Shown piece by piece: positions 43,124-60,820 of a stretch of DNA of 64,000 nt; position 1 is the first letter of the stretch; the number at the start of each line of letters is the position of its first letter. Where the stretch lies: the IMG/VR virus record IMGVR_UViG_3300043436_004224; one strand, 5' to 3'. Origin of the DNA: an uncultured virus (IMG/VR IMGVR_UViG_3300043436_004224) (taxonomy: Duplodnaviria > Heunggongvirae > Uroviricota > Caudoviricetes). The notes beneath the pieces were generated by a model that was given only the letters and a program-made list of their open reading frames with translations, ran no database searches and was not told the origin of the DNA. The position numbers and the translations under genes are program-made.

Positions 43124-43303
43124 TCCAAATGTTGTTTATGAGGGGCAAAAAGGTAGCGCTCTCCCTCTCCGCACTCAAAATATTCTTTCAAACTAATCAC
43201 CAACTTTTAACGAATGTACAATTGTTAGTTAGGGCGGCCAGGATTTCCGTCCTCTCCCCAGTAGATCCTGGTCGTCCGTCTTCTAACGATTGGAACGTTT
43301 AAC

Positions 43304-47138: not shown

Positions 47139-47369
47139 TTGCGTTTGTCAGTTACATGTGCTATAGTCCAAGTACTAAATAGGAAAGGACACAATGACAG
47201 AGAAATCTTTCAATGTCAGTTTTATAACAGACAGAGTAATAGTTAGCACAACAGTCGAAGCTGATAACGATACAGACGCCCATAACAAAGCCCTAGAGGA
47301 AGTTAGGTATTACTTAGGGCTAGACCTAGTCCCTGTTCGTTATCAGATAGAAGTAGAGAAGGTCTAACA

Positions 47370-47699
47370 ATGATTAGATACCAAACAACAGCTAGTTTTA
47401 GTTTTTCAACCAACATTAGACCCGAGCTGGGATTAGAAAAAGAAACCCGCGAAGTCATAAGATACCTCATAGAAGAAGAGGGTATTGATTCCTTTTTGGA
47501 TAAATTAGAGTATGGAGATGTTGAGCAGATAGAAGTCAGTGAAGAGGACATGGACGCTACCCAAGATAGCGACTTACTAATTCCAATGGACAAAGTCAAA
47601 GAGATGTTCACAGCTGTGTCCCTAGGAATCCTTGAGGTAGAAGGACTGACCAAGGAAGAAGCAGAAGAGGCACTAAAAAGATTTCCAAAGGAACAGTAA
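47370..47699 (+). CDS. Acidic hypothetical protein
   Basis: ORF in operon driven by promoter at 47139-47167. Confidence 0.55.
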   Translation: MIRYQTTASFSFSTNIRPELGLEKETREVIRYLIEEEGIDSFLDKLEYGDVEQIEVSEEDMDATQDSDLLIPMDKVKEMFTAVSLGILEVEGLTKEEAEEALKRFPKEQ

Positions 47700-48257
47700 A
47701 CACGCCCATAGATTGCTTGACAAATTTTTAGAATTATGCTACGTTTGTCCTATCAAACAGAAAGGGGAAGCCACATGGACTTCTATGGAAACCCAGAAAT
47801 CAAAAAGGCCTATCAGGCCGGCTTCAATGATGGACTCCAATGCGGAGTAGATAATGCACGAGAGTTCGAATACATTACTGAAGAGCAGGCAGAAGATTTG
47901 CTGACTGAACTAGTGAAAGAGGAAAACTAATTATGACAATGGACGAACTGATGGAATACGTTTTGAGGGAACTACCTGACGCCGTTTTTGGTGAGGACAA
48001 TGCATCAGGCGAGATTGTTATCGCGACAGGTCTCATAGAAAAATCTGATGGCGAGCCACTAGAAAGAATTGAGGACTAGTCATGGCGCTTAGTCACAAAG
48101 AGTTCACCCAGATAATGGAAGAACTAGAACGAATTGAAAACGAGCCAGCCACAGAGTGCGCGTGCCGTAACTGCGCCGAGGTCGAGCTTTACAGCAGACT
48201 TTATTGCAGAGACTGCTATGACATGGCTTGCTCAAAAACAGACGAGGACATGCACTA

Positions 48258-48731
48258 ATGGGACTAGACATGTATCTAGAAGCTAGACGTTTTGTCAGCG
48301 GATGGAGTCACACCAAGGAAGAAGAGAAAGCAATCTTTGATTCTCTAGTGAAGGCAATCAACATGGACGGCCTGCATGATGAGAGATTTGCCACGGTAAA
48401 CGTGAACGTCGCTTATTGGCGTAAGGCTAACCACATCCACAACTGGTTCGTGCAGAACGTGCAAGACGGCGAGGATGACTGTAAGCAATACCACGTCACT
48501 CGTGAAAAGTTGTTAGAGCTTGAGCAACTTTGTAGAGACGTTTGTCAGGCCGGCACGGCTGATGTGGCGAGCGCGAAGTTGCCTCTTGCAACGGGGTTCT
48601 TCTTTGGGTCAGACCAGTATGACGAATACTATTTCGAGCAGACCGACTGGACAGCCAAACGGATTGCCGAGCTAATGATAGCTATCCCAGATGACGGCAT
48701 GCTGGACTTCTACTACCAGTCAAGCTGGTAG
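48258..48731 (+). CDS. Hypothetical phage protein (MGLDMY...YWRKAN family)
   Basis: Start ATG 48258; YWRKANHIHNWF, GFFFGS, YQSSW; related to 49212-49730. Confidence 0.7.
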   Translation: MGLDMYLEARRFVSGWSHTKEEEKAIFDSLVKAINMDGLHDERFATVNVNVAYWRKANHIHNWFVQNVQDGEDDCKQYHVTREKLLELEQLCRDVCQAGTADVASAKLPLATGFFFGSDQYDEYYFEQTDWTAKRIAELMIAIPDDGMLDFYYQSSW

Positions 48732-48795
48732 GCCTGCGTAGCTAACGGCGAGCGCATCCCAAATCAACGGCGTGCGCTCGCTGTATGCTATACTC

Positions 48796-49095
48796 ATGCG
48801 CTCAATAGAACTGCACCACTTTCAGACCGATAGGGACGTAGAGCTTGCTCTAACCTCTGGACTAGCACTGCCAGAACAGCTAGCCATGACGGACTGCACT
48901 GAGTGCGACGCAAGACTGTGTTACTCAGTCTCAGACTCGAACTTTGTACCATTTGTACTAGTGATTGATGAAAGCGACCAAGATTGGGTTCTATGCGAAG
49001 ATTGCGCAAGCCCAATACTTACGCTGACAGACACCTTTTTCCCCCCAGCAGTGGGTAGCCACTTTTCTGATTACGAGGATTTTGAGCCTTTTTGA
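48796..49095 (+). CDS. Cys-motif hypothetical protein, leaderless
   Basis: TATGCT 6 nt before ATG; two CxxC. Confidence 0.55.
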   Translation: MRSIELHHFQTDRDVELALTSGLALPEQLAMTDCTECDARLCYSVSDSNFVPFVLVIDESDQDWVLCEDCASPILTLTDTFFPPAVGSHFSDYEDFEPF

Positions 49096-49211
49096 TGTAT
49101 CCACTTTTTACGACAAGGTAGACACGCCCTAAAAATACTCGTCAAAAGAACTTGCGAAATGTCAGTAGACCCCTGTATAGTTGGACTTACCAATGAAAGG
49201 GGAAATACCAA

Positions 49212-49730
49212 ATGGGTATGGATGTTTATGGCAAGAAACCAACCAACGAGGTTGGCGAGTATTTTCGCAGAAATGTTTGGGGTTGGCATCCTCTATGGGA
49301 TTATGTAGAGAACAATCACCCAGAGATTGCGGAGTTAGTTGAACACGCTCACAGTAATTCTGGAGATGGCTTGGATGAGGAGAACTCAAAAAAGTTGGCA
49401 CAACTTTTGATGAACGACTACAACTCATCTAAAGTTATTGACTATGTTGATGAGCGTAATCGTCAGCTTTCAGAGCTTCCTTTTGAGGATTGTCAAATCT
49501 GTAAGGGAACAGGAATTAGAAGTGATGAACTCGGCGTTGAAAGTGGCTGGACAACTAGAGAACTAGCACCAGACATAGCAATCATTGTTGGTCGCACTCA
49601 TGGTTCTTGTAATGCTTGCCAAGGAGTAGGCAAGCGAGAGAACTGGGCTACCAACTATTTCCTAGAGCCTGACGACATAAAAGAGTTTGCCGAGTTCCTT
49701 GAGAACTGCGGTGGCTTTGAGATTTGCTAA
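49212..49730 (+). CDS. Hypothetical phage protein with CxxCxGxG motifs
   Basis: AAAGGGGAA RBS; YFRRNVWGWHPLW, CQICKGTG, CNACQGVG. Confidence 0.7.
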   Translation: MGMDVYGKKPTNEVGEYFRRNVWGWHPLWDYVENNHPEIAELVEHAHSNSGDGLDEENSKKLAQLLMNDYNSSKVIDYVDERNRQLSELPFEDCQICKGTGIRSDELGVESGWTTRELAPDIAIIVGRTHGSCNACQGVGKRENWATNYFLEPDDIKEFAEFLENCGGFEIC

Positions 49731-49743
49731 GGGGGTTTAGAAA

Positions 49744-49935
49744 ATGGAAAAACTTTTTTGCTTTAGTTGCGAGGACGAACTTACTGCGAAAAACACTTCG
49801 TCTTACGAGGGGTTTGACAGTTCGGGCTATCTAGTAGCTAACAGGATTGCGAAAATTGGTAAGGACATGTTTATCAAGTGTGACCCATGCTTTGATGCGG
49901 ACATTGACAATTACCTAGACAATCTCCAAAGCTAA
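49744..49935 (+). CDS. Small Cys-motif protein
   Basis: CFSC...CDPC; AAGGGGG RBS. Confidence 0.55.
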   Translation: MEKLFCFSCEDELTAKNTSSYEGFDSSGYLVANRIAKIGKDMFIKCDPCFDADIDNYLDNLQS

Positions 49936-50155
49936 GACCTAGGGAAAGACCCCTGCCTAGCAGGTTCAACGCCCGAAGCAACCTGAGCCAAGTTGTAAAA
50001 CTGGCTCACTAAATCTTTCAGGGGCGTGTATCCACTTTTTACCTGGGACCCCCCGAAAAAACTTTTTACGAAATAAGTTTGACAAAAGATGAAAAGTATG
50101 GTTTACTTCTTACATGGCAAAAAGCCATAGACACAACAAGGAAAGGGGGAAGTCA

Positions 50156-50761
50156 ATGACTTCCACAGCTACACCAAAGATTGTAGGCAAGGCACTCTAC
50201 CTAGAGCTAATTGCCGACAACACCATAGACGCAGACAAGCTAAGAAAAGTCTTGGGTTGGCAACACGCAGGCACAAGACAGATAATTATTTTCCCAGAGT
50301 ATCAAGACGATACAGGGAAAGTTTGGGGTTCAGTAGTTATGAATCGCATTATCTCTAGTCACTCACCTAGAAGCCAATGGGACATTACTTTTATTGACAG
50401 GTATAGACCAAACATAGGTGCGTTGAGGGTGGACGACAGTTATCACAACTACCCAGAATACGAGCGTCCAGTTTGGGACACACTAACAAATAAAGAGAAG
50501 TTTGATTCTCACAAGTTGGCGTTGGATTCAACCTTGAGAAAAATTATTTTGTCAAGTGATTCCGAAATAGATTCAACTGGCAATAGAAAATTGACAGCCC
50601 TACAAGCCTTGAGGGTTAGAGATAACAAGCCAATCGCAGTAGAGATTACTGACGAGGACATGGTTGAACTTCACATGAAGTCAAAAACTCCACAGGCAGT
50701 AATTCGCAGAATCAACAAGGTTCGTGAATCCATTTCTAGTTTCCCAGCGAAACTCGCATAA
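50156..50761 (+). CDS. Hypothetical protein, first gene of AAA/VWA unit
   Basis: Start moved to ATG 50156 after AAAGGGGGAAG RBS; TTGACA at 50079. Confidence 0.65.
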   Translation: MTSTATPKIVGKALYLELIADNTIDADKLRKVLGWQHAGTRQIIIFPEYQDDTGKVWGSVVMNRIISSHSPRSQWDITFIDRYRPNIGALRVDDSYHNYPEYERPVWDTLTNKEKFDSHKLALDSTLRKIILSSDSEIDSTGNRKLTALQALRVRDNKPIAVEITDEDMVELHMKSKTPQAVIRRINKVRESISSFPAKLA

Positions 50762-50803
50762 CCTAAAAATAGATACAGACACAACAAAGAAAGGGCGGAA
50801 GCC

Positions 50804-51865
50804 ATGTATCAACAAAAAGTAATAGCAGAACACACAGCACCAGACCTAGCAGGAATCAACTATGACCAACTGTTAGAACAACTTGTCGGGGCAGTAAGGG
50901 GTTCAAGTTTCGGAGTGACAACTTCAATTCTTGACGAACACCTAACACCAGCAGGTAGAGCAACACTACGCACTAAAGGTAAAGCAGGTTCAACACTTTC
51001 AACTCCAGCTAAACTAGATGAAGCAGAGCCAGCGAAGCTAGAGGAAGTTATGGAATCAGTTGCGAACTTAGAGGGAGAGGAATCTTACTCACGACCTAAT
51101 GGCGACCTTTACTATGGTCGCAAGTGGGGCGACAATGTAGATGTTGAAGTTCTACGCAAAGCCAGAGAAGCAGGACAGTATGTAATGCTCTATGGAGTTC
51201 CTGGAACTGGAAAGACAGCGTGCGTTGAAGCTGCTTTTCCAGATGAACTTTACACAGTTCTTGGTTCTGGCGACACCGAAGTTTCTGACTTGGTAGGTGG
51301 CTATGTCCAAACTCCAAGTGGCGGTTTTGAGTGGGTGGACGGAAGTTTAGTAAAAGCAGCTTCCGAGGGTAAAGTTCTACTGATTGACGAAATTGGTTTG
51401 ATTGACCCGAAAGTTCTTTCGGTTGTCTATGGACTAATGGACGGCAGAAAAGAAATTACAATCACACAGAATCCAGAGCGAGGCACAGTAAAAGCTAAGG
51501 AAGGATTTTTTGTAGTTTCGGCAACTAACCCTAATGTCGCAGGAGTTCGTTTGTCAGAGGCACTTCTATCTCGTTTCGCTATTCAGGTTGAAATGACTAC
51601 TGATTGGAACTTGGCTAGGAAACTTGGAGTTCCGCAGAGTGCGGTTGTTGCTTCACAGAATCTAGCAAAGAAACTAGAAAATGGTGAAACTTCTTGGTCG
51701 CCACAAATGCGAGAGTTGCTTGCGTTCCGTGACTTGTCCAAAATGTTTGGAACAAAGTGGGCAGTCCAAAACTTGCTTGCTTCCGCACCAGAGATTGACA
51801 GACCAATCGCTAGTGATGTATTCACCAGAGTATTCGGAGAGGCAATCCTGCCAGCAAAGATTTAG
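50804..51865 (+). CDS. MoxR/CbbQ/CobS-like AAA+ ATPase
   Basis: Walker A GVPGTGKT, Walker B LLIDE, ATNP, EALLSRF. Confidence 0.9.
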   Translation: MYQQKVIAEHTAPDLAGINYDQLLEQLVGAVRGSSFGVTTSILDEHLTPAGRATLRTKGKAGSTLSTPAKLDEAEPAKLEEVMESVANLEGEESYSRPNGDLYYGRKWGDNVDVEVLRKAREAGQYVMLYGVPGTGKTACVEAAFPDELYTVLGSGDTEVSDLVGGYVQTPSGGFEWVDGSLVKAASEGKVLLIDEIGLIDPKVLSVVYGLMDGRKEITITQNPERGTVKAKEGFFVVSATNPNVAGVRLSEALLSRFAIQVEMTTDWNLARKLGVPQSAVVASQNLAKKLENGETSWSPQMRELLAFRDLSKMFGTKWAVQNLLASAPEIDRPIASDVFTRVFGEAILPAKI

Positions 51866-51996
51866 TGAGTGGGTTGTGTCCTCACTAAAGGGTGGGGAAA
51901 CGCAAGGTTTTTTCTTGTTTGATTTGACTTGCGTTTCTCCCCCAACTACTATACAATTTAGACATAACAAAAAAACGCCAAATGAAAGGGAAGCAA

Positions 51997-53850
51997 ATGG
52001 CACACTACAAAGTAAAAGGTAAGTCAAGACTTACAACACGAACAACTACAACCAACCCAGAGTGGCTAAGAGTTTGTTCACAGATTGGTCGCTTGGTCAA
52101 TGATTGGTCATGGCGTTCAGATTTAGTTGTCTATGGTGGAGAGGATTCTGCCGAGGGCAAAGCTATCGCTGCTTTTTATTCAGACATAGCAGAGATTGAA
52201 GTGAACTTGCCGAAAGCGTTTGGAGAACTTACGCCAGCAGATTTTGTCGGCGACTTGACTAAAAAAGAAACGCAGTATGAGTATCCAATGGTGACAGGCG
52301 TTCTGTATCACGAAGCACTACACGCACGCCACACGAATTGGGACACTTCAATTTTGTCAGAGGCACTAGACCCTAATGAGCAAAGAGCTTTTATGTTGCT
52401 AGAGGAATCACGAATTGAAGCAAAGGGAATCAAAGAGCGACCAGAGCTTAGAAACTTCTTGCGTGCTTCTGCTTTAGACATGGCACTAGACGAAGTGACT
52501 ACAGACACACTCGCAGGTTTGGCTAGTGATGTTTGGAATACAGCACGCCTAGCAGGACTTTCAGTTTCAAGAGTGGATTCAGGAGTTCTTGAAGTTTCTG
52601 ACATTACTGACATTTACAGAGAAGTAGTTTCAGTTCTTGGTCAGGACTTGTTTGACGAACTAAGAAAAGTTTGGATTGAGTTTCAGGCACTAGGCGTTCC
52701 ACAGATTGAGCGAGCTATTGAACTTGCTAAGAAGTGGGTTGAACTATTGCGTGAATCAGACCCAGAGGGCGAGCCAGATTCAGGTTCGGCAGGTGACATT
52801 TTCGGCGAGCCAGATGAATCAGAGGGCGACAGCGAGGGTGGAAGCGGAAGTGAACTGTCTGACACCATGAAAGACATGATTGAAAAACTTTCCGAATCTG
52901 CTAGTCACTCGGAGATAGAAGCGAGAGAGGCACTTGCCCAACAAGAGCAACAAGACAAGTGGGGCGAGGAATCAAAAGCAAGGCAAGAGCAAGCAAAGAA
53001 TAACAACCAACGCAAAAACATAGCCAAGCAAATCTTTCACAAGCCACACTCCCAAGAGGGTTCGGGTTCTAACTCGTCTGTATCCTCTCGCAGACAGCCG
53101 ACAGGGACAGAGCGAGCAAGTGCGGTAGAGATTGCTAAGTCATTAGACAAGGCAAAGTATCGTGAGCGTTCGGTTCATGTTCGCAAAAGTCAGACACCAC
53201 AGGGCAAGCTGATTATGAGAAACGCCGTCCAGAATAGGGCAGTTGAATCTATTGGCAAGCGTGGAGAGTTGCCAGCGTGGAAGTCAAAGACACGCAAGCA
53301 CACAGACGACCCAACGCTAAGGCTTGGAATCATGGTGGACATTTCAGGTTCTATGGGTTCTGCTATGGAAGCTATGGGACAGACAGCGTGGATTATGTCC
53401 GAGGCAGGTCGCAGGATTCAAGCTGAAACGGCTATGGTGTATTACGGCTCTGGCGTGTTCCCAACTCTAAAGCGTGGACAGCGTTTGAGCGAGGTGACGA
53501 TTTACACAGCACCAGACGGAACTGAAAAGTTTACCGAAGCGTTTGAAGCGATTGACGGCGAGCTTGGACTAACTTTTGGGGACGGCGTGCGTATGTTAGT
53601 TGTTGTGTCGGACGGAAACTACACAGGCACAGAACTACAGAGAGCAACCGAACTACTAAGAGAGTGTAAACAAAACGGCGTGGCGGTTCTTTGGATTACA
53701 CCGAGAGGTTGTAATGGCATGGGGGCGAGGTCAATAATTTCTGGTTCGGCGTGGGGAGTTCACTTGGACGACCTAGACACAACGGAGATTGCGAGGCAAG
53801 TCGGCAAGTCGGCAAGCGAAGCATTGGGTCGGGTGGGTTCACTCACCTAG
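51997..53850 (+). CDS. VWA-domain partner protein (CobT-like) with HEXXH motif
   Basis: HEALH..H, LEESRIE, acidic linker, MIDAS DISGSM, VVSDG; start ATG 51997 after GGGAAG; promoter TTGCGT-N17-TACAAT. Confidence 0.85.
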   Translation: MAHYKVKGKSRLTTRTTTTNPEWLRVCSQIGRLVNDWSWRSDLVVYGGEDSAEGKAIAAFYSDIAEIEVNLPKAFGELTPADFVGDLTKKETQYEYPMVTGVLYHEALHARHTNWDTSILSEALDPNEQRAFMLLEESRIEAKGIKERPELRNFLRASALDMALDEVTTDTLAGLASDVWNTARLAGLSVSRVDSGVLEVSDITDIYREVVSVLGQDLFDELRKVWIEFQALGVPQIERAIELAKKWVELLRESDPEGEPDSGSAGDIFGEPDESEGDSEGGSGSELSDTMKDMIEKLSESASHSEIEAREALAQQEQQDKWGEESKARQEQAKNNNQRKNIAKQIFHKPHSQEGSGSNSSVSSRRQPTGTERASAVEIAKSLDKAKYRERSVHVRKSQTPQGKLIMRNAVQNRAVESIGKRGELPAWKSKTRKHTDDPTLRLGIMVDISGSMGSAMEAMGQTAWIMSEAGRRIQAETAMVYYGSGVFPTLKRGQRLSEVTIYTAPDGTEKFTEAFEAIDGELGLTFGDGVRMLVVVSDGNYTGTELQRATELLRECKQNGVAVLWITPRGCNGMGARSIISGSAWGVHLDDLDTTEIARQVGKSASEALGRVGSLT

Positions 53851-53939
53851 ACCTAAACGGAGTGCTTGCCCAGCGGTTGAGCGAAAGTCAGGACTTCCCC
53901 CCTTTGACCTGATAATAGTTCCCAACGGACAAGACACTA

Positions 53940-53990
53940 GAAACCCCTATCAAGTGCTTCCCCCAAGTCTTGGTAGGGGTTTCGCCTTTC
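53940..53990 (+). terminator. Long hairpin or terminator after VWA gene with C-rich loop
   Basis: GAAACCCCTATCAAG-TGCTTCCCCCAAGT-CTTGGTAGGGGTTTC. Confidence 0.7.
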
Positions 53991-54206
53991 TCGGTTTGAC
54001 GGACGAGATTGGGTGGAATCTGAATCCCTGGCACAGACTTTTTACGAAAGATGAAAAGTCACCAGCAGAAAAAGCTGACGAAGGCGTATCCACTTTTTAT
54101 CTGGCTAAAAACTTTTTTGACAAAACACTTGCTTTTTCTGTAAACCCTGTTAGGATTGGAACTATCCAATCGGAACGAAACAGAAGTAGTTCCAGAGGGG
54201 GGATTT

Positions 54207-54557
54207 ATGGCTAAGGTCATTTCCCGAACAGCCCCAGAGGTTGCGAAAGCAACTCCAAAGGTTGTCAAAGTTTCACGAAAAGTCGTGGAACTAATCAGCG
54301 AACTTTCCGAAGTTCGTGCTACATACAACTCGGCGAAAGCCAGAGTTGAGGAACTTCGTGACGAAGTTCTTTCCCAAGTTGGGCGTTCCAATTTGACCCT
54401 TGTCCACAACAGCATTGAGGTCGCTCGTATCGTTGAGAGTTCTCCTGTGCGTGTAGATGAGGAGTTCTTGAAAGAGAACTATCCAGAGGCTTACCAAGCT
54501 TCTCTAAGGGCAAAGCCCCAACACACGATTCGCTCTGTCACACGCAAAGCGAACTAA
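54207..54557 (+). CDS. Hypothetical coiled-coil protein; paralogue of 61953-62294
   Basis: EVRA...TL.HN.IE.ARI...D.E.L...(Y/F)PEA shared; start ATG 54207. Confidence 0.7.
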   Translation: MAKVISRTAPEVAKATPKVVKVSRKVVELISELSEVRATYNSAKARVEELRDEVLSQVGRSNLTLVHNSIEVARIVESSPVRVDEEFLKENYPEAYQASLRAKPQHTIRSVTRKAN

Positions 54558-54719
54558 AGAACTGGGCGGGCAGGGCGAAAGCCCTGTCCCCCATTTCATT
54601 TTTTATTTGACCTGACAATGTATCCACTTTTTACCAAAGGAAATGGACACGGAAAAAAGATACCGAAAATGTCAGGGACTATGCTAAGATTGGAACTACC
54701 ACAAAGAAAGGGGAACACC

Positions 54720-55070
54720 ATGAGAGGCGAGCCATTAGAGCTTGACGAAGTTGCTGGATTATCTCTAACAGTATTGGGCGTGCTTGTTGAGGCATACATC
54801 AAAGAGGGATACAGCGACCCGACAATGTATAGAGCAATACGGGCTTCAACCGAACTGGCTAAAAACTTCAAGGCACGGCTAGAACTAGACGGACGGGACA
54901 CGGACGGCGTGGACGACTTGATTACTAACCTAGAGCTAACGGCTATGGAATCTGGCGAGGTAGTAAACCGAATCATAGAGCAGAACGGCTGGCAAGAAAC
55001 GGCTGGCGAGTGGAGTAGCCCTGCTAGTATGACTTGTGATAACGACTGCGAACATGACGGCAAGGAGTAG
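54720..55070 (+). CDS. Hypothetical protein
   Basis: AAAGGGGAA RBS before ATG 54720. Confidence 0.6.
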   Translation: MRGEPLELDEVAGLSLTVLGVLVEAYIKEGYSDPTMYRAIRASTELAKNFKARLELDGRDTDGVDDLITNLELTAMESGEVVNRIIEQNGWQETAGEWSSPASMTCDNDCEHDGKE

Positions 55071-55077
55071 GGACGGC

Positions 55078-55377
55078 ATGGACTTTCAGACTGCGTTCGG
55101 CGAGGTTGTGCGTGAGCAACGGCGTGCTAATGAGATTACAATGCGAAGCGTGACGGATAGGGGACACCTAGCGTTGGGATACCTGTCCGAAGTGGAACGG
55201 GGACACAAAATGCCCTCTAGCCTAATAATTGCGTCCATAGCAGACGGACTGGGTATAGACGCAAGCGAGCTGATTATTCAGACGGGTATGCGTATGTCCA
55301 ATGTTCCTGAAAGCCCTGAAAGCCTGTTCAAGCTAAGGGACAGAGATTGGGCTAATCAGTATTCAGATTTGAGATAG
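55078..55377 (+). CDS. XRE-family HTH regulator, ClgR-like
   Basis: FGEVVREQR...LALGYLSEVERGHKMPSS.IIASIADGLG resembles actinobacterial ClgR (SLGYLSEVERG.KE.SS). Confidence 0.8.
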   Translation: MDFQTAFGEVVREQRRANEITMRSVTDRGHLALGYLSEVERGHKMPSSLIIASIADGLGIDASELIIQTGMRMSNVPESPESLFKLRDRDWANQYSDLR

Positions 55378-55524
55378 AGAAAGCCCCCCTGACAAAAGTT
55401 AGGGGGATTTTTTCTTGGCTGGTAGTGTATCCACTTTTTGCTGAACATTTTTTGTTTGGTTTTTGTCGGGGGTAGGGTATAGGATTTGATTGTTATAAAA
55501 ACTCCAACAGGAAAGTAGGGGAAA

Positions 55525-55761
55525 TTGAGTTATTATCCAGAGGGTTCTATGGCTGGTTCTGGCATAGATTCCGTAGAAGTTCCGTATGACGAGTTTGTCT
55601 GCGAAGCTGACGATTGTGGCAAGGTGAACGAAGCTAGTGAAGCTATGACAGACGACTATGGCAATTACGAAGTTGAGTGCCAGTTCTGCGGTAGCTTTTA
55701 CTTTAGAAGTTCTATTGCCGAGGACAAGGCAGATTGGGCAGCGAATAATTATGATTACTAA
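55525..55761 (+). CDS. Small acidic zinc-ribbon protein
   Basis: CEADDC...CQFC; TTG start after GGGGAA. Confidence 0.6.
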   Translation: MSYYPEGSMAGSGIDSVEVPYDEFVCEADDCGKVNEASEAMTDDYGNYEVECQFCGSFYFRSSIAEDKADWAANNYDY

Positions 55762-55918
55762 TCCAAAACAGGGGACACCAATAAAAAACAGCAAGGGCGA
55801 ATTACGATACGAATACACTTGCCCGAAGTGTTTTGACGAATACAGGGTGGACGAAAAGACACACGCTTGGATTCAGACCTTAGACAGACTGCCTAAGTGT
55901 TCGCCTTGCTACTTGTAG
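55751..55918 (+). CDS. Small zinc-finger protein
   Basis: CPKC...CSPC; ATG 55751. Confidence 0.55.
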   Translation: MITNPKQGTPIKNSKGELRYEYTCPKCFDEYRVDEKTHAWIQTLDRLPKCSPCYL

Positions 55919-56101
55919 CCTAAAAAGTTTCCCCCGAATAATCAGGAACAGCGATTCCGATTCGGGGGATTTTTTTATGCCGTCAATGTGTATCCACTTT
56001 TGCTGCGGCAGGGTAAAACTTTTTATGTGCGGTGAAAAGTCGTAGGTAGGTGATAGTATTCAAGTATCAAGCAACACTAACCACGAACAAAGGGGAACAA
56101 G

Positions 56102-56413
56102 TTGAAAAGATTGCCTAACTACAAGATTGGCGCGGAGATTAGTGCGCTAAACACTTTCACGAACTACAATGGCACAATTAGCGCCGTTCGGGACGAGAAT
56201 AATTACAGGATTACACACTGGAACACTGTAATTCTTGATTACAACACTGACACCAACGAGATTATTTCGCTACAAGATAGCTACATTAGCCAGACAACCA
56301 GCGCGCTAGTTGGGCGAATCTTGAGGGCGTTGCCATACGCTTCGGTTGAAAGATACTTGGGCTACATGACGCCGTCAAAAGATAAGCGCCGTTTGGTCGG
56401 TATGCTTCGATAA
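56102..56413 (+). CDS. Hypothetical protein
   Basis: Single-gene unit with AAAGGGGAA RBS and terminator. Confidence 0.65.
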   Translation: MKRLPNYKIGAEISALNTFTNYNGTISAVRDENNYRITHWNTVILDYNTDTNEIISLQDSYISQTTSALVGRILRALPYASVERYLGYMTPSKDKRRLVGMLR

Positions 56414-56554
56414 AAAGCCAAAAAGTTAGCCCCGCTTCGGCGGGGTTTTCTTTTTCCGTGAAAAGTTGCGCCGGTCGCGGCGTGTATCCACTTTTTGATG
56501 AAAGCTTTTTGCGGATCCTTGATCTGTATAATTGTTGATGAAGGGGGAACACCA

Positions 56555-56869
56555 TTGAATAATTTCTCAGAGCGAATCATTGCCAATACCGAAGATGGAC
56601 GCCGTGAAGTGCGCGTCCTGCGTCTTGCGGTAAGTCTTGGCGACGACTTGGCATACATTGATTGGGAGCCAAGCGGGGAGCTTTACTTTATCAAAGTCCC
56701 CGTCGAGTATCGCCGTCAAGGAATCGCTACAAAGCTATGGCAGGACGCTCAGGAACACGCGAGAAGCTTGAACTTGCCCGCGCTAACCCATAGCGAATAC
56801 AGAACTGACGCGGGCGATTCTTGGGCTAAGTCCCTAGGCGAAAAACTTCCACCAAGAATCCGCGCTTAG
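56555..56869 (+). CDS. GNAT-family acetyltransferase
   Basis: IKVPVEYRRQGIATKL (motif A); TTG 56555 after AAGGGGGAA. Confidence 0.75.
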   Translation: MNNFSERIIANTEDGRREVRVLRLAVSLGDDLAYIDWEPSGELYFIKVPVEYRRQGIATKLWQDAQEHARSLNLPALTHSEYRTDAGDSWAKSLGEKLPPRIRA

Positions 56870-56988
56870 TTTTTTGTAGCCAGGTGTATCCACTTTTTGA
56901 CGAGGCGACACGCTTGCTTGCGGGTTCTTGCTTTTGTCGGTGGGTTGGGGTAAAGTCAAACTAACCAAGCAAGAGGGAAGGAAACAAA

Positions 56989-57204
56989 ATGATTGGTAGA
57001 AACAAAGATGCGGAAACAGCTTTTGATATGGCAATGAAGTTGCTGAACAACCCAAGTGAGGAAGTTCAACAGCAAGTCTGGGACAAGTGCCACGCTGACG
57101 AAGTAATCCAAAGGTCGGTAAGGCTTTACCTTTACAGCGAGCCAAGCTACACACCAAAGGCTCTATACAACCTTCACCAAAAACTCGCCGAGTTGGTGTC
57201 CTAA
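56989..57204 (+). CDS. Hypothetical protein
   Basis: GAGGGAAGG RBS. Confidence 0.6.
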   Translation: MIGRNKDAETAFDMAMKLLNNPSEEVQQQVWDKCHADEVIQRSVRLYLYSEPSYTPKALYNLHQKLAELVS

Positions 57205-57345
57205 TGGTTGTTCGCCCGCTGGAGAATACAGTTTGCTATCAATGCCCTAAGAAGATTATGGCAATGGTTGGTGCGGTTCACCCGCTATGCGTTGAGTGTC
57301 AAGAAAGTTTTGACGATTGGTTTGAACACGAGCTAGGAGTTTTCA

Positions 57346-57549
57346 ATGGCTAAGCAAGTTTATTTTGTTGTTGCGGTGGACTTAGATGAGTGCGTGCCGT
57401 TTATAGATGATGACACCTTTACAGCAAGGTTCAGTTCGGCAGAGCAAGTTTGGGACACCGAACTACAAGAGTGGCAAGAAGACCCTGACCAAGAGTTTTA
57501 CGATAAAGCGTTGAAGATTTTGAACACCATACCTTTAGCGAAAGACTAG
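57346..57549 (+). CDS. Hypothetical acidic protein
   Basis: AGGAG RBS. Confidence 0.6.
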   Translation: MAKQVYFVVAVDLDECVPFIDDDTFTARFSSAEQVWDTELQEWQEDPDQEFYDKALKILNTIPLAKD

Positions 57550-57552
57550 TCA

Positions 57553-57864
57553 ATGAAACACAAAAAGAGTAAAGTTCAAGGCAAGTCTAGGCACGCCGAG
57601 TATCTTCGCCGAGTAGATAACGCCGATAGAGTTGCGGTAATGCTAAGGGGCATAACTTTATTTTGCGCTTTTATTTTTGTAATGAGGATAGTCGCTGGCG
57701 TTGATTCAGTTTCAGAATACCTAATCCTTTATGCGGTTGTGTTTGTGGGCGGGGTTAGTGCTTCGCTTGCCGAATACTTTTTGTTTAGGGCTTACCAAAG
57801 TCGCTACTCAAAAAGTCGCCGACAAAGTTTTTGGGATTTGTTCAACACCGAACTTTCCAAATAA
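57553..57864 (+). CDS. Two-TM membrane protein
   Basis: Two hydrophobic segments. Confidence 0.6.
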   Translation: MKHKKSKVQGKSRHAEYLRRVDNADRVAVMLRGITLFCAFIFVMRIVAGVDSVSEYLILYAVVFVGGVSASLAEYFLFRAYQSRYSKSRRQSFWDLFNTELSK

Positions 57865-58002
57865 AACTTCCCGCTAGGACTTCCCCCCTAGCGGGATTTT
57901 CTCTTTCCAGCTGCGTATCCACTTTTTGATAGAGATTTTTTTGTGTGCGTTTTGTCGGTGGACTATGCTATGGTTGAAGTATCCAAACAAAGGGGAAGTA
58001 AA

Positions 58003-58194
58003 TTGAAGACAGATTCAAGAATAGCAATAGTTTCAGAGCTACCAAACTGCGACTTCTGCGGTGAACACGCTCGCTATGACGGAGCAACCAAACTTGGACC
58101 TTGGGCTTTTATGTGCCAGAAGGACTGGGTATCTCACGGAGTAGGGCTTGGGCTTGGCAAAGGTCAAGTTCTAATGAAGGAAGGAACTAAGTAA
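58003..58194 (+). CDS. Small Cys-motif phage protein
   Basis: CDFC...YDGATK.GPWAFMC; TTG 58003 after AAAGGGGAAG. Confidence 0.65.
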   Translation: MKTDSRIAIVSELPNCDFCGEHARYDGATKLGPWAFMCQKDWVSHGVGLGLGKGQVLMKEGTK

Positions 58195-58395
58195 ATGGCG
58201 ACAACAGTTGGAGAGCTGATTGAACAGCTAAAGACGCTGGACCCCGACACAACAGTTGTGTTTCAGTATTTGACACACGAACACACCGACTTTTCAATTG
58301 ACGATTTTGAGTCAAAAGCCGAGGCACTTGACTACACCAACTTCGCTGATGAAATGTCTATCACGATGAACGAGTGGCTCGCCGAAATGGAGTAG
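58195..58395 (+). CDS. Hypothetical protein
   Basis: TVGELIEQL..LDPD. Confidence 0.6.
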   Translation: MATTVGELIEQLKTLDPDTTVVFQYLTHEHTDFSIDDFESKAEALDYTNFADEMSITMNEWLAEME

Positions 58396-58566
58396 CCACG
58401 CGACACCAAAGATTCCCCCGCGACCCCCGCGGGGGTTTTCTTTTTTGCCGGAAGGTAGCCAGGTGTATCCACTTTTTGATTCGGCTGCCGAAAGGGTTTT
58501 GTAAAAGTATTTGCTTTTTTCTTTTTGTGTAGTAAGATGAAACTCTAACGAAAGGGAGGTTCCTAA

Positions 58567-58959
58567 ATGGGAGCAAGAACAACTTGGAAAATAAAGACTA
58601 ATGATTCGGGAGCTATTACTTGGCTTTACAGTCATTGGGGAGGCGACAGTAAGTTTGACACCACTAAAGAGGCGTTGGACTTGGCTATGCCTCGCTGGGA
58701 GGATAGGACTTATGGAGCTAGGATTTTTATCAGTAGCGTAATTGGTAATTCTTGGAGTTCACAGACAGGGTTTGGAATTACTTCAACCCTTGACACAGAT
58801 TCCAACCCGTTTGAGGAAAGCTACACGCCTTACACAATTGACTTTGTGCGGAAAGTAGTGATTCTTGAAGGTGTTCTCGGAGAGGACTGGGAGTTAGGCT
58901 TTGACGAGTTCACTAGACTAAACAGCGAAGCCGACTTGCTACTTCAAGGGACAAGGTAA
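58567..58959 (+). CDS. Hypothetical phage protein (LYSHWGG motif)
   Basis: GGGAGGT RBS. Confidence 0.65.
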   Translation: MGARTTWKIKTNDSGAITWLYSHWGGDSKFDTTKEALDLAMPRWEDRTYGARIFISSVIGNSWSSQTGFGITSTLDTDSNPFEESYTPYTIDFVRKVVILEGVLGEDWELGFDEFTRLNSEADLLLQGTR

Positions 58960-59241
58960 ATGGGAAACTTACAAGCTCAAGAAATTGCGAGCAACACCGA
59001 AATTACACTTGAACAGCAACTAACTTGGCACTTACAAGGTAATCACTATCCACCGATTCCAGTTAGTATGGTTCAGCCTTGTGTTGAAGCAATTCAGGCT
59101 TATTGGGAAGATGAGCTAGACACGGAGATTCAGTTGCCCGAAGGTGTTTTGTATCGGGGGAAGGAAACAGCCCCCGCTAGAGAAATAATCATCAATCATC
59201 ACTTAGACGCTTGGTGTCAAGATGACGAAGATGAGTTTTAG
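58960..59241 (+). CDS. Hypothetical phage protein
   Basis: WHLQGNHYPP...HHLDAW. Confidence 0.65.
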   Translation: MGNLQAQEIASNTEITLEQQLTWHLQGNHYPPIPVSMVQPCVEAIQAYWEDELDTEIQLPEGVLYRGKETAPAREIIINHHLDAWCQDDEDEF

Positions 59242-59444
59242 GATTAGCCCCAACTAACCCCCCAAATGCGGGCAATAGAGAGATTCCCCCTTTCTATTGC
59301 CCGTTTTCTTTGCGTGCCGGTAAGGTATCCACTTTTTACTGGGCTTGATTTTCTTTTTATGAAATACTTGTTTTTCTTTGTTAGTGTGTTATTGTTTATC
59401 TGTTGGGAAGTTCCCGACAAGAAACAAGAAAGTTGGGCAGAGAA

Positions 59445-59672
59445 GTGAAGTTTGTAATTAGGAGAGCAGTCTTAGGGTTGGTGGCTTTGCCAGTAATCGC
59501 TGGGACTTATGTTTTTATGTTTGTATTGCTAGGTTCGCTAAACAATACTTTATGGGGACTAACCCTAGATGAAGTTTGGAATAACGGACTTTTGATTGGT
59601 TCGGTTAGTGCGGTTGCTTTCGCTTTCGCAACTCAGATTGACAAGCTAATTGCTAGATTGGTTGGTGAATAA
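59445..59672 (+). CDS. Membrane protein
   Basis: Two TM segments; GTG 59445 start assumed. Confidence 0.55.
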   Translation: MKFVIRRAVLGLVALPVIAGTYVFMFVLLGSLNNTLWGLTLDEVWNNGLLIGSVSAVAFAFATQIDKLIARLVGE

Positions 59673-60297
59673 TGACTATCATTGTAATCAACCTAGACGG
59701 CTCAAGAACGCCTTACGGCTATTCGGCTCACTCATCAGACATCACCGATTACTATGACCGCCTAGTTGCGGAAAATAGAATCACCGCCTATGAGGTGATT
59801 TCCTAATGGGAGATTTTATTCTATTAGCGTTTGCTATCGGACTTATCTTTGGTGGCTTTACTCTTATGTTTTACAGTTTACTAACTGTAAAAAGAGATAA
59901 CTACCGACCGAAGCATACACGCTCAACATACCTGCCCAACAGGAAAAGATAGTTCCCCCAACTATCGGAAAGCCCTCGCCTTTGTGCGGGGGTTTTCTTT
60001 TTTCTGTTTTTTTTTTCTGACGAGAGCTGGTATCCACTTTTTGATGGAAGTTTTTTCGGCTTCCGTTTTGTCGGGCATTTATGCTAGTGTTAGAGCTACC
60101 AATTAGAAAGGTTATCAAATGGGAAAGTTAGTTGCAGAGCTAGGAACAAAAAAAGTCTTATCTCTAGTTGAAGGCGAAACAACAGTTTCGGCTTACTTAC
60201 TCACGGAGAGTGAAGAGTTTCTTGCTGTCCTAAAGAGTGCCGACAGTCTAGAGCAGGTTCTAGATTGGGTAGAAGAAAACTACTAGGAAGGTAGAAA

Positions 60298-60648
60298 ATG
60301 AAATTAGCTCTAAAGATAACGCCAGATGGCGTAGCAACTGAAATTGACATAGCCACGGACGAATTGAAGAAACTACAAGACGCGGTTGATGGTCTAATTC
60401 AACCCGTTGATTTTGAGTTCGGCTCTAGGTATTTGACAATGTGGGTGAATGAAGAAGGACTACTTAGAAACGATTTGGAAATGAATCCTGTCGCCTTTCT
60501 GTTTTACTCTTCACCGATAATGGGAAACATTATCATAACTGGCGCGCCAGATGAAGATGGCGAAACAACAAGCCTAGACAGCGCGACAGAGTTAGATGTT
60601 CTAAAAAGGATTTGTGAAAAGTTCCTAAGTTCTGTTGAACAAGTCTAA
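60298..60648 (+). CDS. DUF3846-like protein
   Basis: LQDAVDGLIQ...MWVNEEG.....N..A...I.GNIIITG..DEDGETTSL. Confidence 0.75.
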   Translation: MKLALKITPDGVATEIDIATDELKKLQDAVDGLIQPVDFEFGSRYLTMWVNEEGLLRNDLEMNPVAFLFYSSPIMGNIIITGAPDEDGETTSLDSATELDVLKRICEKFLSSVEQV

Positions 60649-60820
60649 ATAAAAAACTAAAGCAACCCCGCCTTTGCGCGGGGTTTCTTTTTATCTTCCG
60701 TAAAAAGTCTGCCGTCAACTGGTATCCACTTTTTGATGCCTCTCTTAGTTGCGGTTGCTTTTTTCTTGCGTTTGTGTTATCTTGATTTGGCTTATAGCAA
60801 CACTTAGTAGAAAGAGAAAA

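What the first reader, a model, noticed from the sequence alone, without database searches (positions are those of the whole stretch)
50130..53983. 3' hairpin loops complementary to the leaders and RBSs of the same operon (AAA/VWA unit)
Seen, three cognate matches in one unit. (1) The hairpin after the AAA gene, TTTAGTGAG-[TGGGTTGTGTC]-CTCACTAAA (51861-51889), has loop GTTGTGTC. This is the reverse complement of GACACAAC, found in the leaders of both upstream genes (50130 and 50778). (2) A hairpin after the VWA gene (53888-53912) displays GACTTCCCCCCTTT, complementary with one bulge to AAAGGGGGAAGTC (50142-50154), the RBS of the first gene. (3) The next hairpin (53940-53983) displays TGCTTCCC, the exact complement of GGGAAGCA (51988-51995), the RBS of the VWA gene itself. 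The matches extend beyond the generic SD into gene-specific bases. Known: C-rich loops of S. aureus RNAIII block SD sequences. Inference: a built-in RNA-level translational shut-off, by 5'-3' mRNA looping or 3'UTR-derived sRNAs, may time early gene expression.
Basis: partly seen in the sequence, partly recalled or inferred. Interest (0 to 1): 0.8.

Follow-up and report, generated by a model that had tools for sequence, protein, structure and literature searches.

The report
Phage mRNA tail loops matching own start sites
In an uncultured lake phage and about 35 relatives, the hairpins that end two early transcripts carry loops complementary to the ribosome-binding regions of those same transcripts, and loop and target change together across the family, which points to a built-in RNA-RNA control of translation.

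Summary
The unit is g1 (no family), a CobS-like AAA ATPase and a CobT-like VWA protein.

Claim 1 holds. The loop of the hairpin after AAA (HP1) tracks a leader motif of AAA and g1 through six complementary versions. The longest complement averages 7.94 nt for cognate pairs and 6.14 nt for non-cognate pairs (0 of 5000 permutations).

Claim 3 holds. The loop of the last hairpin after VWA (HP3) tracks the VWA ribosome-binding site (7.66 against 5.79 nt, 0 of 5000). In two distant relatives both sides have switched to an unrelated, non-C-rich sequence.

Claim 2 holds only in its generic part. The HP2 stem covaries and its loop is a conserved C6T3 anti-SD-like run, but it shows no cognate partner.

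Within genomes, each loop fits its own gene's leader better than the other gene's (27 of 28 and 24 of 28, never worse).

Best reading: cis 3'-to-5' pairing of the icaR type, one hairpin per transcript. Physical pairing, its sign and any timing role are untested. Fully supported independent contrasts are few (3 of 3; 7 of 7 on the best tree).

The parts
50079..50107 (+). Promoter-like site for the g1-AAA transcript: TTGACA, 17 nt, TTTACT
   Evidence: Read. The hexamers and 17-nt spacing are kept, with a different spacer, in L002 and L003. Inferred promoter, not mapped.
50114..50128 (+). 5' leader hairpin ATGGC-AAAAA-GCCAT
   Evidence: Folded. Relatives carry compensated stems (GTAGC/GCTAC, CGAAC/GTTCG, TCGCC/GGTGA and others).
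50130..50137 (+). g1 leader motif GACACAAC, target of the HP1 loop
   Evidence: It covaries with the HP1 loop: the loop T/C matches the leader A/G in 28 of 28 loci.
50142..50164 (+). g1 ribosome-binding site AAAGGGGGAAGTC, start codon at 50156, and local hairpin GGAAGTC-AAT-GACTTCC (50148-50164)
   Evidence: The hairpin arms covary in relatives (TAGTC/GACTA, GGTC/GACC). Opening the site costs about 9 kcal/mol.
50156..50761 (+). g1, 201 aa, no family match
   Evidence: No Pfam or PHROG match. Syntenic in every relative that holds enough DNA.
50778..50785 (+). AAA leader motif GACACAAC, target of the HP1 loop
   Evidence: Cognate against non-cognate longest complement 7.94 against 6.14 nt, 0 of 5000 permutations, n=31.
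50804..51865 (+). AAA ATPase, CobS-like, 353 aa
   Evidence: Pfam AAA_5 at 1.3e-20. phrog_16448 (ATPase) at 4.7e-52 and phrog_249 (porphyrin biosynthesis) at 1.5e-25.
51861..51889 (+). HP1: a 9-bp stem that holds the AAA stop codon TAG (51863-51865), with a loop carrying GTTGTGTC (51873-51880)
   Evidence: Fold. AGATTTAG is invariant in 29 of 29 aligned sequences. By my reading there are at least 8 stem variants, all paired. The loop covaries with the leaders.
51890..51943 (+). Long hairpin between AAA and VWA. Its 3' arm and the following bases carry a promoter-like site for VWA (TTGACT 51924-51929, 17 nt, TACTAT 51947-51952)
   Evidence: With HP1, the fold is -39.6 kcal/mol, z -3.66. The arms are rewritten with compensation in relatives (GGGGAGTGTCAA/TTGACACTCCCC). 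The -35 CTTG core and a TAxxxT -10 keep their positions in alignment A3.
51961..51968 (+). VWA leader motif GACATAAC, a weak relative of the HP1 target
   Evidence: No significant cognate match to HP1 in the first set (5.29 against 5.08 nt, 644 of 5000). A slight one in the larger set (4.89 against 4.56 nt, 17 of 5000).
51988..51995 (+). VWA ribosome-binding site GGGAAGCA, target of the HP3 loop; start codon at 51997
   Evidence: It covaries with the HP3 loop. The site is accessible, with an opening cost of 1.1 kcal/mol.
51997..53850 (+). VWA protein, CobT-like, 617 aa
   Evidence: Weak Pfam VWA_CoxE match, below the curated cut-off (8.9e-4). The homologous stretch in Actinomycetia phage DSL-LC01 is annotated 'cobalamin biosynthesis protein | AAA family ATPase'.
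53851..53995 (+). Conserved structured 3' region of the VWA transcript: outer stems P1 and P2 enclosing HP2, then HP3
   Evidence: RNAalifold on 26 sequences: 28 predicted pairs, 12 with compensatory changes. No Rfam family.
53888..53912 (+). HP2: TCAGG-ACTTCCCCCCTTTGA-CCTGA, with a generic anti-SD-like loop
   Evidence: The stem is fully compensated in relatives and the loop core CCCCCCTTT is conserved. No cognate partner among four ribosome-binding sites. Loop replaced by TTACCGTTTTT in L010/L038, L012 and L036/L037.
53940..53983 (+). HP3: a 15-bp stem with loop TGCTTCCCCCAAGT, possibly the transcript's terminator
   Evidence: -28.6 kcal/mol, z -4.3. The stem covaries. The loop is complementary to the VWA site and covaries with it. 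The tail TTTCGCCTTTCT is not a clean U tract.
57869..57896 (+). A further terminator-like hairpin with loop ACTTCCCC and a T-rich tail. Same loop core as HP2; complementary to GGGGAAGT (57992-57999), the site of the next ORF
   Evidence: z -6.0. Net predicted pairing energy -11.9 kcal/mol. Covariation was not tested.

Best explanation
The three genes appear to be read as two transcripts: g1-AAA from a promoter at about 50079, and VWA from a promoter inside the long hairpin at about 51924.

Each transcript ends in a hairpin whose loop is complementary to the translation-initiation region or regions of that same transcript. The HP1 loop GUUGUGUC matches GACACAAC just 5' of the Shine-Dalgarno sequences of g1 and AAA. 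The HP3 loop UGCUUCCC matches the VWA site GGGAAGCA.

Once the 3' hairpin has been transcribed, its loop docks on the initiation region of the same molecule. This competes with 30S binding, so it limits further initiation and may expose the mRNA to decay. That is the logic of the icaR 5'-3' UTR interaction.

The AAA stop codon lies in the 5' arm of HP1, so terminating ribosomes must melt HP1. This could couple the switch to ribosome traffic.

HP2 is a generic anti-SD-like loop without a dedicated partner.

Shown here: the complementarity, its conservation, its covariation and its own-gene specificity. Inferred: the transcript boundaries, cis rather than trans action, and a repressive sign.
For: (1) HP1 loop and AAA leader occur in six complementary versions:
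- GTTGTGTC/GACACAAC
- TTCGTGTC/GACACGAA
- (A)GTCGTGTC/GACACGAC(T)
- TTCGTCC/GGACGAA
- CCGTCC/GGACGG
- GTGTCCT/AGGACAC
Cognate longest complement is 7.94 nt against 6.14 nt non-cognate, 0 of 5000 permutations, n=31 unique loci. For the g1 leader it is 7.86 against 6.91 nt, 0 of 5000, n=22.

(2) On a 39-row AAA protein tree, my hand-assigned loop and leader type labels agree in 36 of 39 rows, and each needs 12 changes on the best tree. The T/C loop base against the A/G leader base changes 7 times each. Independent pairs go the same way in 7 of 7 on the best tree and 3 of 3 on starred branches.

(3) By my comparison of the sequences, L008 differs from its close relative L014 by A-to-G in both leaders and T-to-C in the loop. 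Its AAA protein, encoded between those sites, groups with L014-type rows. This argues against transfer of the whole block.

(4) HP3 and the VWA site. The number of A after GGG in the site against the number of T before the C-run in the loop is (3,3) in 10 rows, (2,2) in 8, (1,1) in 6, (1,0) in 3, (4,5) in 2 and (3,4) in 1, out of 30 rows. L017 and L023 pair CCCTTTCGTT with AACGAAAGGG. L064 and L099 pair TTGTCCTTTC and TGTCCTTTCG with GAAAGGACAA and CGAAAGGACA, so the loop is no longer C-rich. Cognate 7.66 against 5.79 nt, 0 of 5000, n=32.

(5) Own-gene specificity within genomes. HP1 fits the AAA leader better than the VWA leader in 27 of 28 loci (1 tie, 0 worse). HP3 fits the VWA leader better than the AAA leader in 24 of 28 (4 ties, 0 worse).

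(6) Both hairpin stems covary.

(7) Accessibility-corrected pairing energies are -7.2 kcal/mol for HP1 with the leaders and -8.8 for HP3 with the VWA site. HP3 with the g1 site gives only -2.5, because that site sits in its own hairpin.

(8) Precedent from abstracts read. A 3'UTR UCCCCUG motif pairs with the icaR SD, blocks initiation and creates an RNase III substrate (PMC3868564). Anti-SD-like 8-mers hundreds of nucleotides downstream pair with the ribosome-binding site, inhibit initiation and are depleted from genes (PMC12697547).
Against: - There are no RNA data. Transcript ends, the promoters and termination at HP3 are all inferred. HP1 has no U tract, and the HP3 tail UUUCGCCUUUCU is atypical.
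- The duplexes are short (6-10 nt).
- Independent contrasts on well-supported branches are only 3 for each pair (sign test p = 0.25). The permutation tests ignore relatedness.
- Type labels were assigned by hand from printed sequences.
- Exceptions exist. L036/L037 and L017 have loop TTCGTGCC; in L036/L037 (leader GACACGAA) this is an uncompensated A.C mismatch, and no L017 leader is held. The L099 leader reads GGACAAA against loop TTCGTCC. For L072, L079 and L122, HP3 matches the VWA site by only 5 contiguous nt.
- L010-type AAA leaders hold three GACAC motifs, one of which has A at the variable position.
- HP3 in the window also matches the g1 site by 8 nt.
- The sign of the effect (repression or protection) is open.
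Confidence: 0.6

Rival explanations
1. The pairing exists but acts in trans. The stable 3' hairpins survive as decay-resistant fragments (3'-end-derived small RNAs), accumulate during infection and titrate the ribosome-binding sites of other copies of these and other early mRNAs.
For: - The region after VWA is a conserved structured RNA of about 145 nt with two C-rich loops and a strong terminal hairpin, which is small-RNA-like architecture.
- The HP2 loop complements many GAAAGGGG-type sites in each locus.
- Other hairpins in the window's 43-60 kb stretch also carry C-rich loops: 43232-43277, 57869-57896, 59268-59304 and 59948-59966.
- Genes in 49-64 kb use AAAGGGG-type SDs, while most genes before about 46 kb (the 5-38 kb block included) use AGGAG-type SDs (my reading).
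Against: - Each covarying loop matches the leader of its own gene and not the neighbour's (27 of 28 and 24 of 28). This is what cis action predicts and trans action does not require.
- 7-10 nt seeds in trans usually need a chaperone (established knowledge).
- No RNA data are available.
Confidence: 0.15
2. The pairing acts in cis but protects rather than represses. Tying the 3' hairpin to the 5' leader shields the leader from endonuclease or 5'-end-dependent decay, as in B. subtilis hbs, and stabilises the mRNA.
For: - In the hbs mRNA a 14-bp 5'/3'-UTR interaction modulates RNase Y cleavage in the leader (abstract of PMC5737220).
- In the window's lineage the HP1 target lies just upstream of the SD rather than on it.
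- The g1 leader also begins with a covarying 5' hairpin, a classical stabiliser.
Against: - HP3 pairs with the SD core itself.
- In many relatives the HP1 target overlaps the AAA SD (AAGGACGAA, AAGGACACGAA), which should compete with the ribosome.
- Anti-SD-like sequences placed downstream were repressive in the B. subtilis screen (abstract of PMC12697547).
Confidence: 0.15
3. The hairpins are ordinary terminators or 3' stabilisers, and their loop complementarity to the leaders is incidental: G-rich SDs meeting C-rich loops.
For: - Loop composition alone gives non-cognate matches of about 6 nt.
- HP2 behaves exactly this way, with no cognate signal.
- The window's HP3 loop fits two different ribosome-binding sites equally well.
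Against: - Cognate matches exceed non-cognate ones in 0 of 5000 permutations for both HP1 and HP3.
- Loop and target switch together to unrelated sequences (TTGTCCTTTC/GAAAGGACAA, TTCGTCC/GGACGAA).
- The HP1 loop is not C-rich at all.
Confidence: 0.05
4. For HP1 only: GACACAAC is a double-stranded DNA site for a phage regulator, present twice in one orientation and once inverted. All copies drift together with the regulator's specificity.
For: - Three copies per genome change in concert.
- The early region does hold a strongly repeated DNA motif, GTATCCAC, in 15 copies all on the + strand, so DNA-level regulons exist in this phage.
Against: - The inverted copy always sits in the loop of a hairpin whose stem is maintained by compensatory changes.
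- The direct copies always lie in 5' leaders next to or on the SD.
- No analogous explanation fits HP3, where the pairing follows length changes in the ribosome-binding site.
Confidence: 0.05

Closest known systems
icaR mRNA 5'-3' UTR interaction, Staphylococcus aureus (PMC3868564; abstract read)
   Same: A pyrimidine-rich motif in the 3' UTR pairs with the SD region of the same mRNA. The mechanism proposed here is the same: it blocks the initiation complex and may create a nuclease substrate.
   Different: - No sequence relation.
- Here it is in a phage operon, with one hairpin per transcript and two cognate pairs.
- The motif sits in hairpin loops next to or overlapping the stop codon rather than in a long 3' UTR.
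- The support is covariation across about 35 genomes, not experiments.
Long-range anti-SD-like folding in B. subtilis mRNAs (preprint PMC12697547; abstract read)
   Same: Pyrimidine-rich 8-mers far downstream pair with the ribosome-binding site, promote decay and block initiation.
   Different: In that work such sequences are accidental, deleterious and depleted. Here they are conserved, placed in 3' hairpin loops and tuned to the cognate site. In the window, 24 of 28 C5 runs on the + strand of 47.3-64 kb lie outside my approximate gene list.
hbs mRNA 5'/3'-UTR interaction, B. subtilis (PMC5737220; abstract read)
   Same: A cis pairing between the two ends of one mRNA.
   Different: That one is 14 bp long and modulates RNase Y cleavage, so it is protective. 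Here the pairs are 7-10 nt and lie on or beside the SD.
C-rich loops of S. aureus RNAIII and RsaE-type small RNAs
   Same: Hairpin loops with C-runs that target SD sequences. This fits HP2, HP3 and the 57869 hairpin.
   Different: Those are independently transcribed, trans-acting RNAs. Here the loops are the 3' ends of the target mRNAs, and the HP1 loop is not C-rich.
Phage precedents: T7 gene 1.1/1.2 mRNA, whose unprocessed 3' end pairs with its ribosome-binding site unless RNase III cuts; lambda int retroregulation by sib; hok mRNA fold-back inhibition (all recalled; T7 search found nothing relevant; for sib only a search listing was seen)
   Same: 3' sequences of an mRNA control the expression of an upstream cistron.
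   Different: sib works by RNase III-triggered decay without pairing to the ribosome-binding site. The T7 and hok cases are single loci. None is described as a family-wide, covarying pair of loop and own ribosome-binding site.

Membership tests
icaR-type 5'-3' UTR anti-SD interaction (a functional class, not a sequence family) | A motif downstream of the stop codon on the same mRNA is complementary to that mRNA's SD region | tested here: met
   HP3 with the VWA site: 8 nt in the window and 7-10 nt in 27 of 32 unique loci. HP1 with the AAA leader: 8 nt in the window and 7-9 nt in 28 of 31. That both lie on one mRNA is inferred from gene order and promoter-like sites.
icaR-type 5'-3' UTR anti-SD interaction (a functional class, not a sequence family) | The pairing is real, classically shown by gel shift and compensatory mutants | tested here: inconclusive
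   Natural compensatory changes are seen: six versions for HP1 and at least six for HP3. Only 3 contrasts lie on well-supported branches. No physical test was possible.
icaR-type 5'-3' UTR anti-SD interaction (a functional class, not a sequence family) | The pairing blocks 30S initiation and/or creates an RNase III substrate | not testable with these tools
   Needs toeprinting, reporter or nuclease assays.
Intrinsic (Rho-independent) terminator | A G+C-rich stem followed directly by a U tract | tested here: inconclusive
   The scan flagged neither HP1 nor HP3. HP1 is followed by AAAGGG. HP3 has a strong stem but the tail UUUCGCCUUUCU. The 57869-57896 hairpin does meet the criteria.
Any Rfam family | A match to a curated covariance model | tested here: not met
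   cmscan of 49000-64000 at E up to 1 returned five sub-threshold hits, at 55907-55976 and 62260-62341. None falls within 50100-54000.
3'-UTR-derived trans-acting small RNA | A stable 3' fragment that accumulates and regulates other transcripts | not testable with these tools
   No RNA holder was listed for this sequence.
CobS/CobT-like AAA plus VWA pair of phages | An AAA_5-type ATPase next to a VWA-domain protein | tested here: met
   AAA_5 at 1.3e-20; phrog_249 at 1.5e-25; a weak VWA_CoxE match at 8.9e-4, below the cut-off. Synteny holds in all relatives with enough DNA.

The most novel reading that the evidence does not exclude
These lake phages run a transcript-intrinsic translation programme.

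Their early-class genes share several features: the GTATCCAC promoter-associated motif, extended AAAGGGG-type SDs, and C-runs that are rare inside coding sequence. The mRNAs of this class end in hairpins that display anti-SD loops, and each transcript's terminal loop is tuned to its own ribosome-binding site.

An mRNA would then be translated mainly while it is being made, and would silence itself once its 3' end exists. That gives a fixed protein quota per transcript, and HP1 would additionally sense ribosome traffic through the stop codon buried in its stem.

Nuclease-resistant 3' hairpin fragments would later accumulate and shut off the whole GGGG-SD class in trans. Genes with AGGAG-type SDs, which mismatch C-runs, would escape.
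Probability: 0.15. Interest if true: 0.85.

Novelty: new variant of a known kind. Interest (0 to 1): 0.7.

Why it matters
Pairing between the 3' and 5' ends of bacterial mRNAs is known from a handful of experimentally dissected single genes, such as icaR and hbs. A recent screen suggests that anti-SD-like sequences far from the ribosome-binding site are generally harmful.

Here the same physical principle appears as a conserved design in a phage family. There are two transcripts, each with a terminal loop matched to its own initiation region, and the match has been kept through repeated rewriting of both partners.

If confirmed, this would be a rare case where natural covariation, not mutagenesis, documents an mRNA end-to-end contact. 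It would add self-limiting mRNAs to the ways phages set the dosage or timing of early proteins. It would also give an easily portable pair of parts (a loop and a leader of 8-10 nt) for testing how such contacts work.

Tried and rejected
- Similarity search in the phage collection: megablast found nothing. blastn found one distant hit, Actinomycetia phage DSL-LC01, at 66% identity over 22% of the query; I did not follow it up.
- No whole genome is held for this window.
- Earlier findings: none.
- Sequencing runs: no RNA holder listed. 20 lake-water or metagenome DNA runs hold the stretch.
- Rfam: no family in the region.
- HP2 against the ribosome-binding sites of g1, AAA, VWA and the downstream gene g5: cognate about equals non-cognate (6.25/6.15, 5.74/5.60, 5.70/5.58, 7.78/7.54 nt; 1470, 1220, 1088 and 1461 of 5000 permutations). 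I rejected a dedicated partner for HP2.
- HP1 against the VWA leader and HP3 against the g1 and AAA leaders: no signal or marginal signal.
- My first HP2 finder picked wrong stems. I replaced it with anchored extraction. The loop extracted for L032-L035 is still off.
- RNAalifold on the MAFFT alignment of the AAA-VWA spacer did not recover HP1, because the short arms are out of register.
- In the 1.2-kb alignment A4, the leader motif is out of register in roughly 10 of 25 rows. I therefore did not run the count of structure pairs on the intermolecular pairs, and used motif tables and longest-complement tests instead.
- Automatic extraction failed for several distant loci. L075 HP3: wrong hairpin. 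L076 and L121 HP3: none found. L071 VWA start and L099 AAA start: placed too far upstream. These errors lower the cognate means. The L075 pair ATTCGTCC/GGACGAA was read by eye.
- Of the 116 loci returned by the 14-base pattern scan, 21 gave a tblastn match to the query proteins. Four of these were 615-nt fragments (L126, L132, L138, L150) and three were ~30% AAA-only matches (L081, L092, L120). I kept 9 new ones; the other hits were left out.
- Literature searches for this element, or for T7 gene 1.2, in the held library found nothing relevant. A search on lambda sib retroregulation was also run; only its listing was seen.

Full report
WHAT IS THERE

The window (44.8% G+C, three tRNAs, collagen-like repeats) reads as a large phage genome from lake water. 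Two IMG/VR contigs are identical to it over 9.8 kb.

The finding lies in a + strand block of three genes:
- g1, 50156-50761, with no family match.
- A CobS-like AAA ATPase, 50804-51865 (AAA_5 at 1.3e-20).
- A CobT-like VWA protein, 51997-53850.

HP1 (51861-51889) folds well. With the long hairpin that follows it (51890-51943) the fold is -39.6 kcal/mol, z -3.66. HP3 (53940-53983) gives -28.6 kcal/mol, z -4.3. HP2 alone is no better than shuffles (z 0.07).

In the window's fold of HP3 only CCCCC is unpaired. By my reading, the extra GCUU/AAGU pairing cannot form in most relatives.

Composition-matched shuffles of each loop reach the observed match length in 0.1-2.1% of 1000 trials. But HP3 fits the g1 site as well as the VWA site. 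The window alone therefore cannot decide specificity.

RELATIVES

Protein-guided scans gave 9 viral and 31 metagenome loci. A 14-base pattern scan added 9 more distant relatives out of 116 loci returned.

The order g1-AAA-VWA is kept wherever enough DNA is held. AAA identity to the window runs from 61% to 87% in full-length copies (up to about 92% in partial ones) and VWA identity from 45% to 77%.

HP1 AND THE LEADERS

The AAA stop codon lies in the 5' arm of HP1 in all 29 aligned sequences; AGATTTAG is invariant. By my reading, the rest of the stem takes at least eight forms, all still paired.

The loop and a motif in the AAA leader occur as six complementary pairs:
- GTTGTGTC/GACACAAC, the window's type. 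In this lineage the motif is also in the g1 leader.
- TTCGTGTC/GACACGAA.
- (A)GTCGTGTC/GACACGAC(T).
- TTCGTCC/GGACGAA.
- CCGTCC/GGACGG.
- GTGTCCT/AGGACAC.

In several lineages the target overlaps the AAA Shine-Dalgarno itself (AAGGACGAA).

The longest Watson-Crick complement between the 22 nt after the stop codon and the 40-nt AAA leader averages 7.94 nt in cognate pairs and 6.14 nt in non-cognate pairs. This is for 31 unique loci, and 0 of 5000 label permutations reach the observed value. For the g1 leader the figures are 7.86 against 6.91 nt (n=22, 0 of 5000). One of the 22 values is an extraction artefact.

On the AAA tree of 30 rows, the T/C loop base matches the A/G leader base in 28 of 28 g1 leaders and 30 of 30 AAA leaders. 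L010-type AAA leaders hold three motifs, one of which has A.

With the distant loci added (39 rows), my hand-assigned loop and leader types carry the same label in 36 of 39 rows. Each needs 12 changes on the best tree.

Independent contrasts go the same way in 7 of 7 on the best tree. Only 3 of 3 lie on well-supported branches, which cannot reach significance.

By my comparison of the sequences, L008 differs from its close relative L014 by point changes in both leaders and in the loop. The AAA gene that lies between those sites keeps it among L014-type rows. Transfer of the whole block does not explain that co-change.

HP3 AND THE VWA SITE

The 145 nt after VWA form a conserved structure: outer stems, then HP2, then HP3. 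Of 28 predicted pairs, 12 show compensatory changes across 26 sequences.

The HP3 loop follows the VWA ribosome-binding site through these versions:
- GCTTCCC with GGGAAGC.
- GCTTTCCC with GGGAAAGC.
- TTTTTCCC with GGGAAAAC.
- CCCTTTCGTT with AACGAAAGGG.
- CCCCTTTT with AAAAGGG.
- In two distant loci, TTGTCCTTTC and TGTCCTTTCG with GAAAGGACAA and CGAAAGGACA. There the loop is no longer C-rich.

The A-count in the site and the T-count in the loop are equal in 24 of 30 rows and within one in all 30.

Cognate against non-cognate is 7.66 against 5.79 nt (n=32, 0 of 5000). This holds despite five extraction failures that lower the cognate mean.

OWN-GENE SPECIFICITY

Within genomes, HP1 fits the AAA leader better than the VWA leader in 27 of 28 loci (1 tie). 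HP3 fits the VWA leader better than the AAA leader in 24 of 28 (4 ties). Neither is ever worse.

The cross tests are null or marginal:
- HP1 with the VWA leader: 4.89 against 4.56 nt, 17 of 5000.
- HP3 with the AAA leader: 5.59 against 5.33 nt, 431 of 5000.

Accessibility-corrected energies agree. HP3 with the VWA site gives -8.8 kcal/mol. HP3 with the g1 site gives -2.5, because that site is locked in its own covarying hairpin. HP1 with the leaders gives -7.2.

HP2

Its stem is fully compensated and its loop core CCCCCCTTT is conserved. However, it complements many GAAAGGGG-type sites in every locus. It shows no cognate partner among four candidates. L010/L038, L012 and L036/L037 have replaced the C-run.

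A generic anti-SD-like loop remains.

MODEL

A promoter-like site with kept hexamers and spacing precedes g1. Another sits in the 3' arm of the long hairpin before VWA.

I read this as two transcripts, g1-AAA and VWA. Each ends in a hairpin whose loop matches the initiation region or regions on that same transcript.

The most likely action is cis docking that competes with the 30S subunit, as shown for icaR (abstract). This also agrees with the repressive effect of distant anti-SD-like 8-mers (abstract).

What is open:
- The sign of the effect. A protective role as in hbs is possible (abstract).
- Cis against trans action.
- The transcript ends.
- Any timing role.

No RNA data could be found.

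KNOWN OR NEW

No Rfam family matches. Four literature searches found no description of this element (of which 50 and 71 were for the T7 and lambda precedents).

The principle is known; the arrangement is new to my searches. It is in a phage, with two cognate pairs, loops at transcript ends, and deep natural covariation. I rate it a new variant of a known kind.

CAVEATS

- The duplexes are short.
- Few contrasts lie on well-supported branches.
- The permutation tests ignore relatedness.
- Type labels were assigned by hand.
- There are exceptions: L036/L037, L017 and L099, and for HP3 also L072, L079 and L122.
- The data are metagenomic contigs with an unknown host.

Noticed in passing
window 49097-62384, + strand: GTATCCAC (usually GTATCCACTTTTT) occurs 15 times, all on the + strand and in intergenic positions, some tens of bases upstream of TTGACA-like hexamers. 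It also appears in relative L031. It is probably a promoter-associated element or regulator site that defines one temporal gene class.
   Followed up: partly
window 50148-50164: The g1 ribosome-binding site and start codon sit in a hairpin, GGAAGTC-AAT-GACTTCC, formed with codons 2-3. The arms covary in relatives (TAGTC/GACTA, GGTC/GACC), and opening the site costs about 9 kcal/mol. A similar arrangement occurs at 47767-47783.
   Followed up: partly
window 50114-50128: A small hairpin at the 5' end of the g1 leader keeps its pairing through many compensatory changes in relatives. It is a likely 5' stabiliser.
   Followed up: partly
window 51890-51943: A long hairpin between AAA and VWA has both arms rewritten with compensation in relatives. 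Its 3' arm carries the -35 of a conserved promoter-like site. The 3' arm of HP1 (CCTCAC) can alternatively pair with GTGGGG at its 5' end, which allows mutually exclusive folds.
   Followed up: partly
window 49-64 kb against the genes before about 46 kb: There are two Shine-Dalgarno classes. Genes in 49-64 kb mostly use AAAGGGG(A)A; 9 of 25 starts have a G4 run within 21 nt. Most genes before about 46 kb (the 5-38 kb block included) use AGGAG-type sites.
   Followed up: partly
window 47300-64000, + strand: C5 runs are concentrated outside genes: 24 of 28 runs lie outside my approximate gene list, which covers 65% of the DNA.
   Followed up: no
window 62950-63600: A non-coding stretch holds at least eight copies of a (G)AC(G)CCCCC-type motif. 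It could be an origin, a packaging site or protein-binding repeats. It warns that C-runs in this phage may also have DNA-level roles.
   Followed up: no
window 43232-43277, 57869-57896, 59268-59304, 59948-59966: Further strong + strand hairpins have C-rich loops. Two of them have T-rich tails and are followed by GTATCCAC. Relatives carry similar terminators (for example GCGGCAGTAGATT-CCCCCC-AATCTACTGCCGC plus a T tail) and a C-loop hairpin just upstream of g1.
   Followed up: partly
window 50061 and 54037: ACTTTTTACGAAA occurs twice, each time upstream of a promoter-like site. Near-identical copies stand at the same place in L002 and L003.
   Followed up: no
window 586-861 (- strand ORF) and 17120-18700: Long 9-nt periodic repeats encode collagen-like Gly-X-Y tracts in large ORFs, probably tail fibre proteins.
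   Followed up: no
window 15335-15367, 19151-19183, 33110-33142, 61769-61801: A family of classical terminators of the form AAAAAGCCCC...GTAA...GGGGCTTTTT with small GTAA-type loops. They contrast with the C-loop hairpins of the early region (family D13).
   Followed up: no
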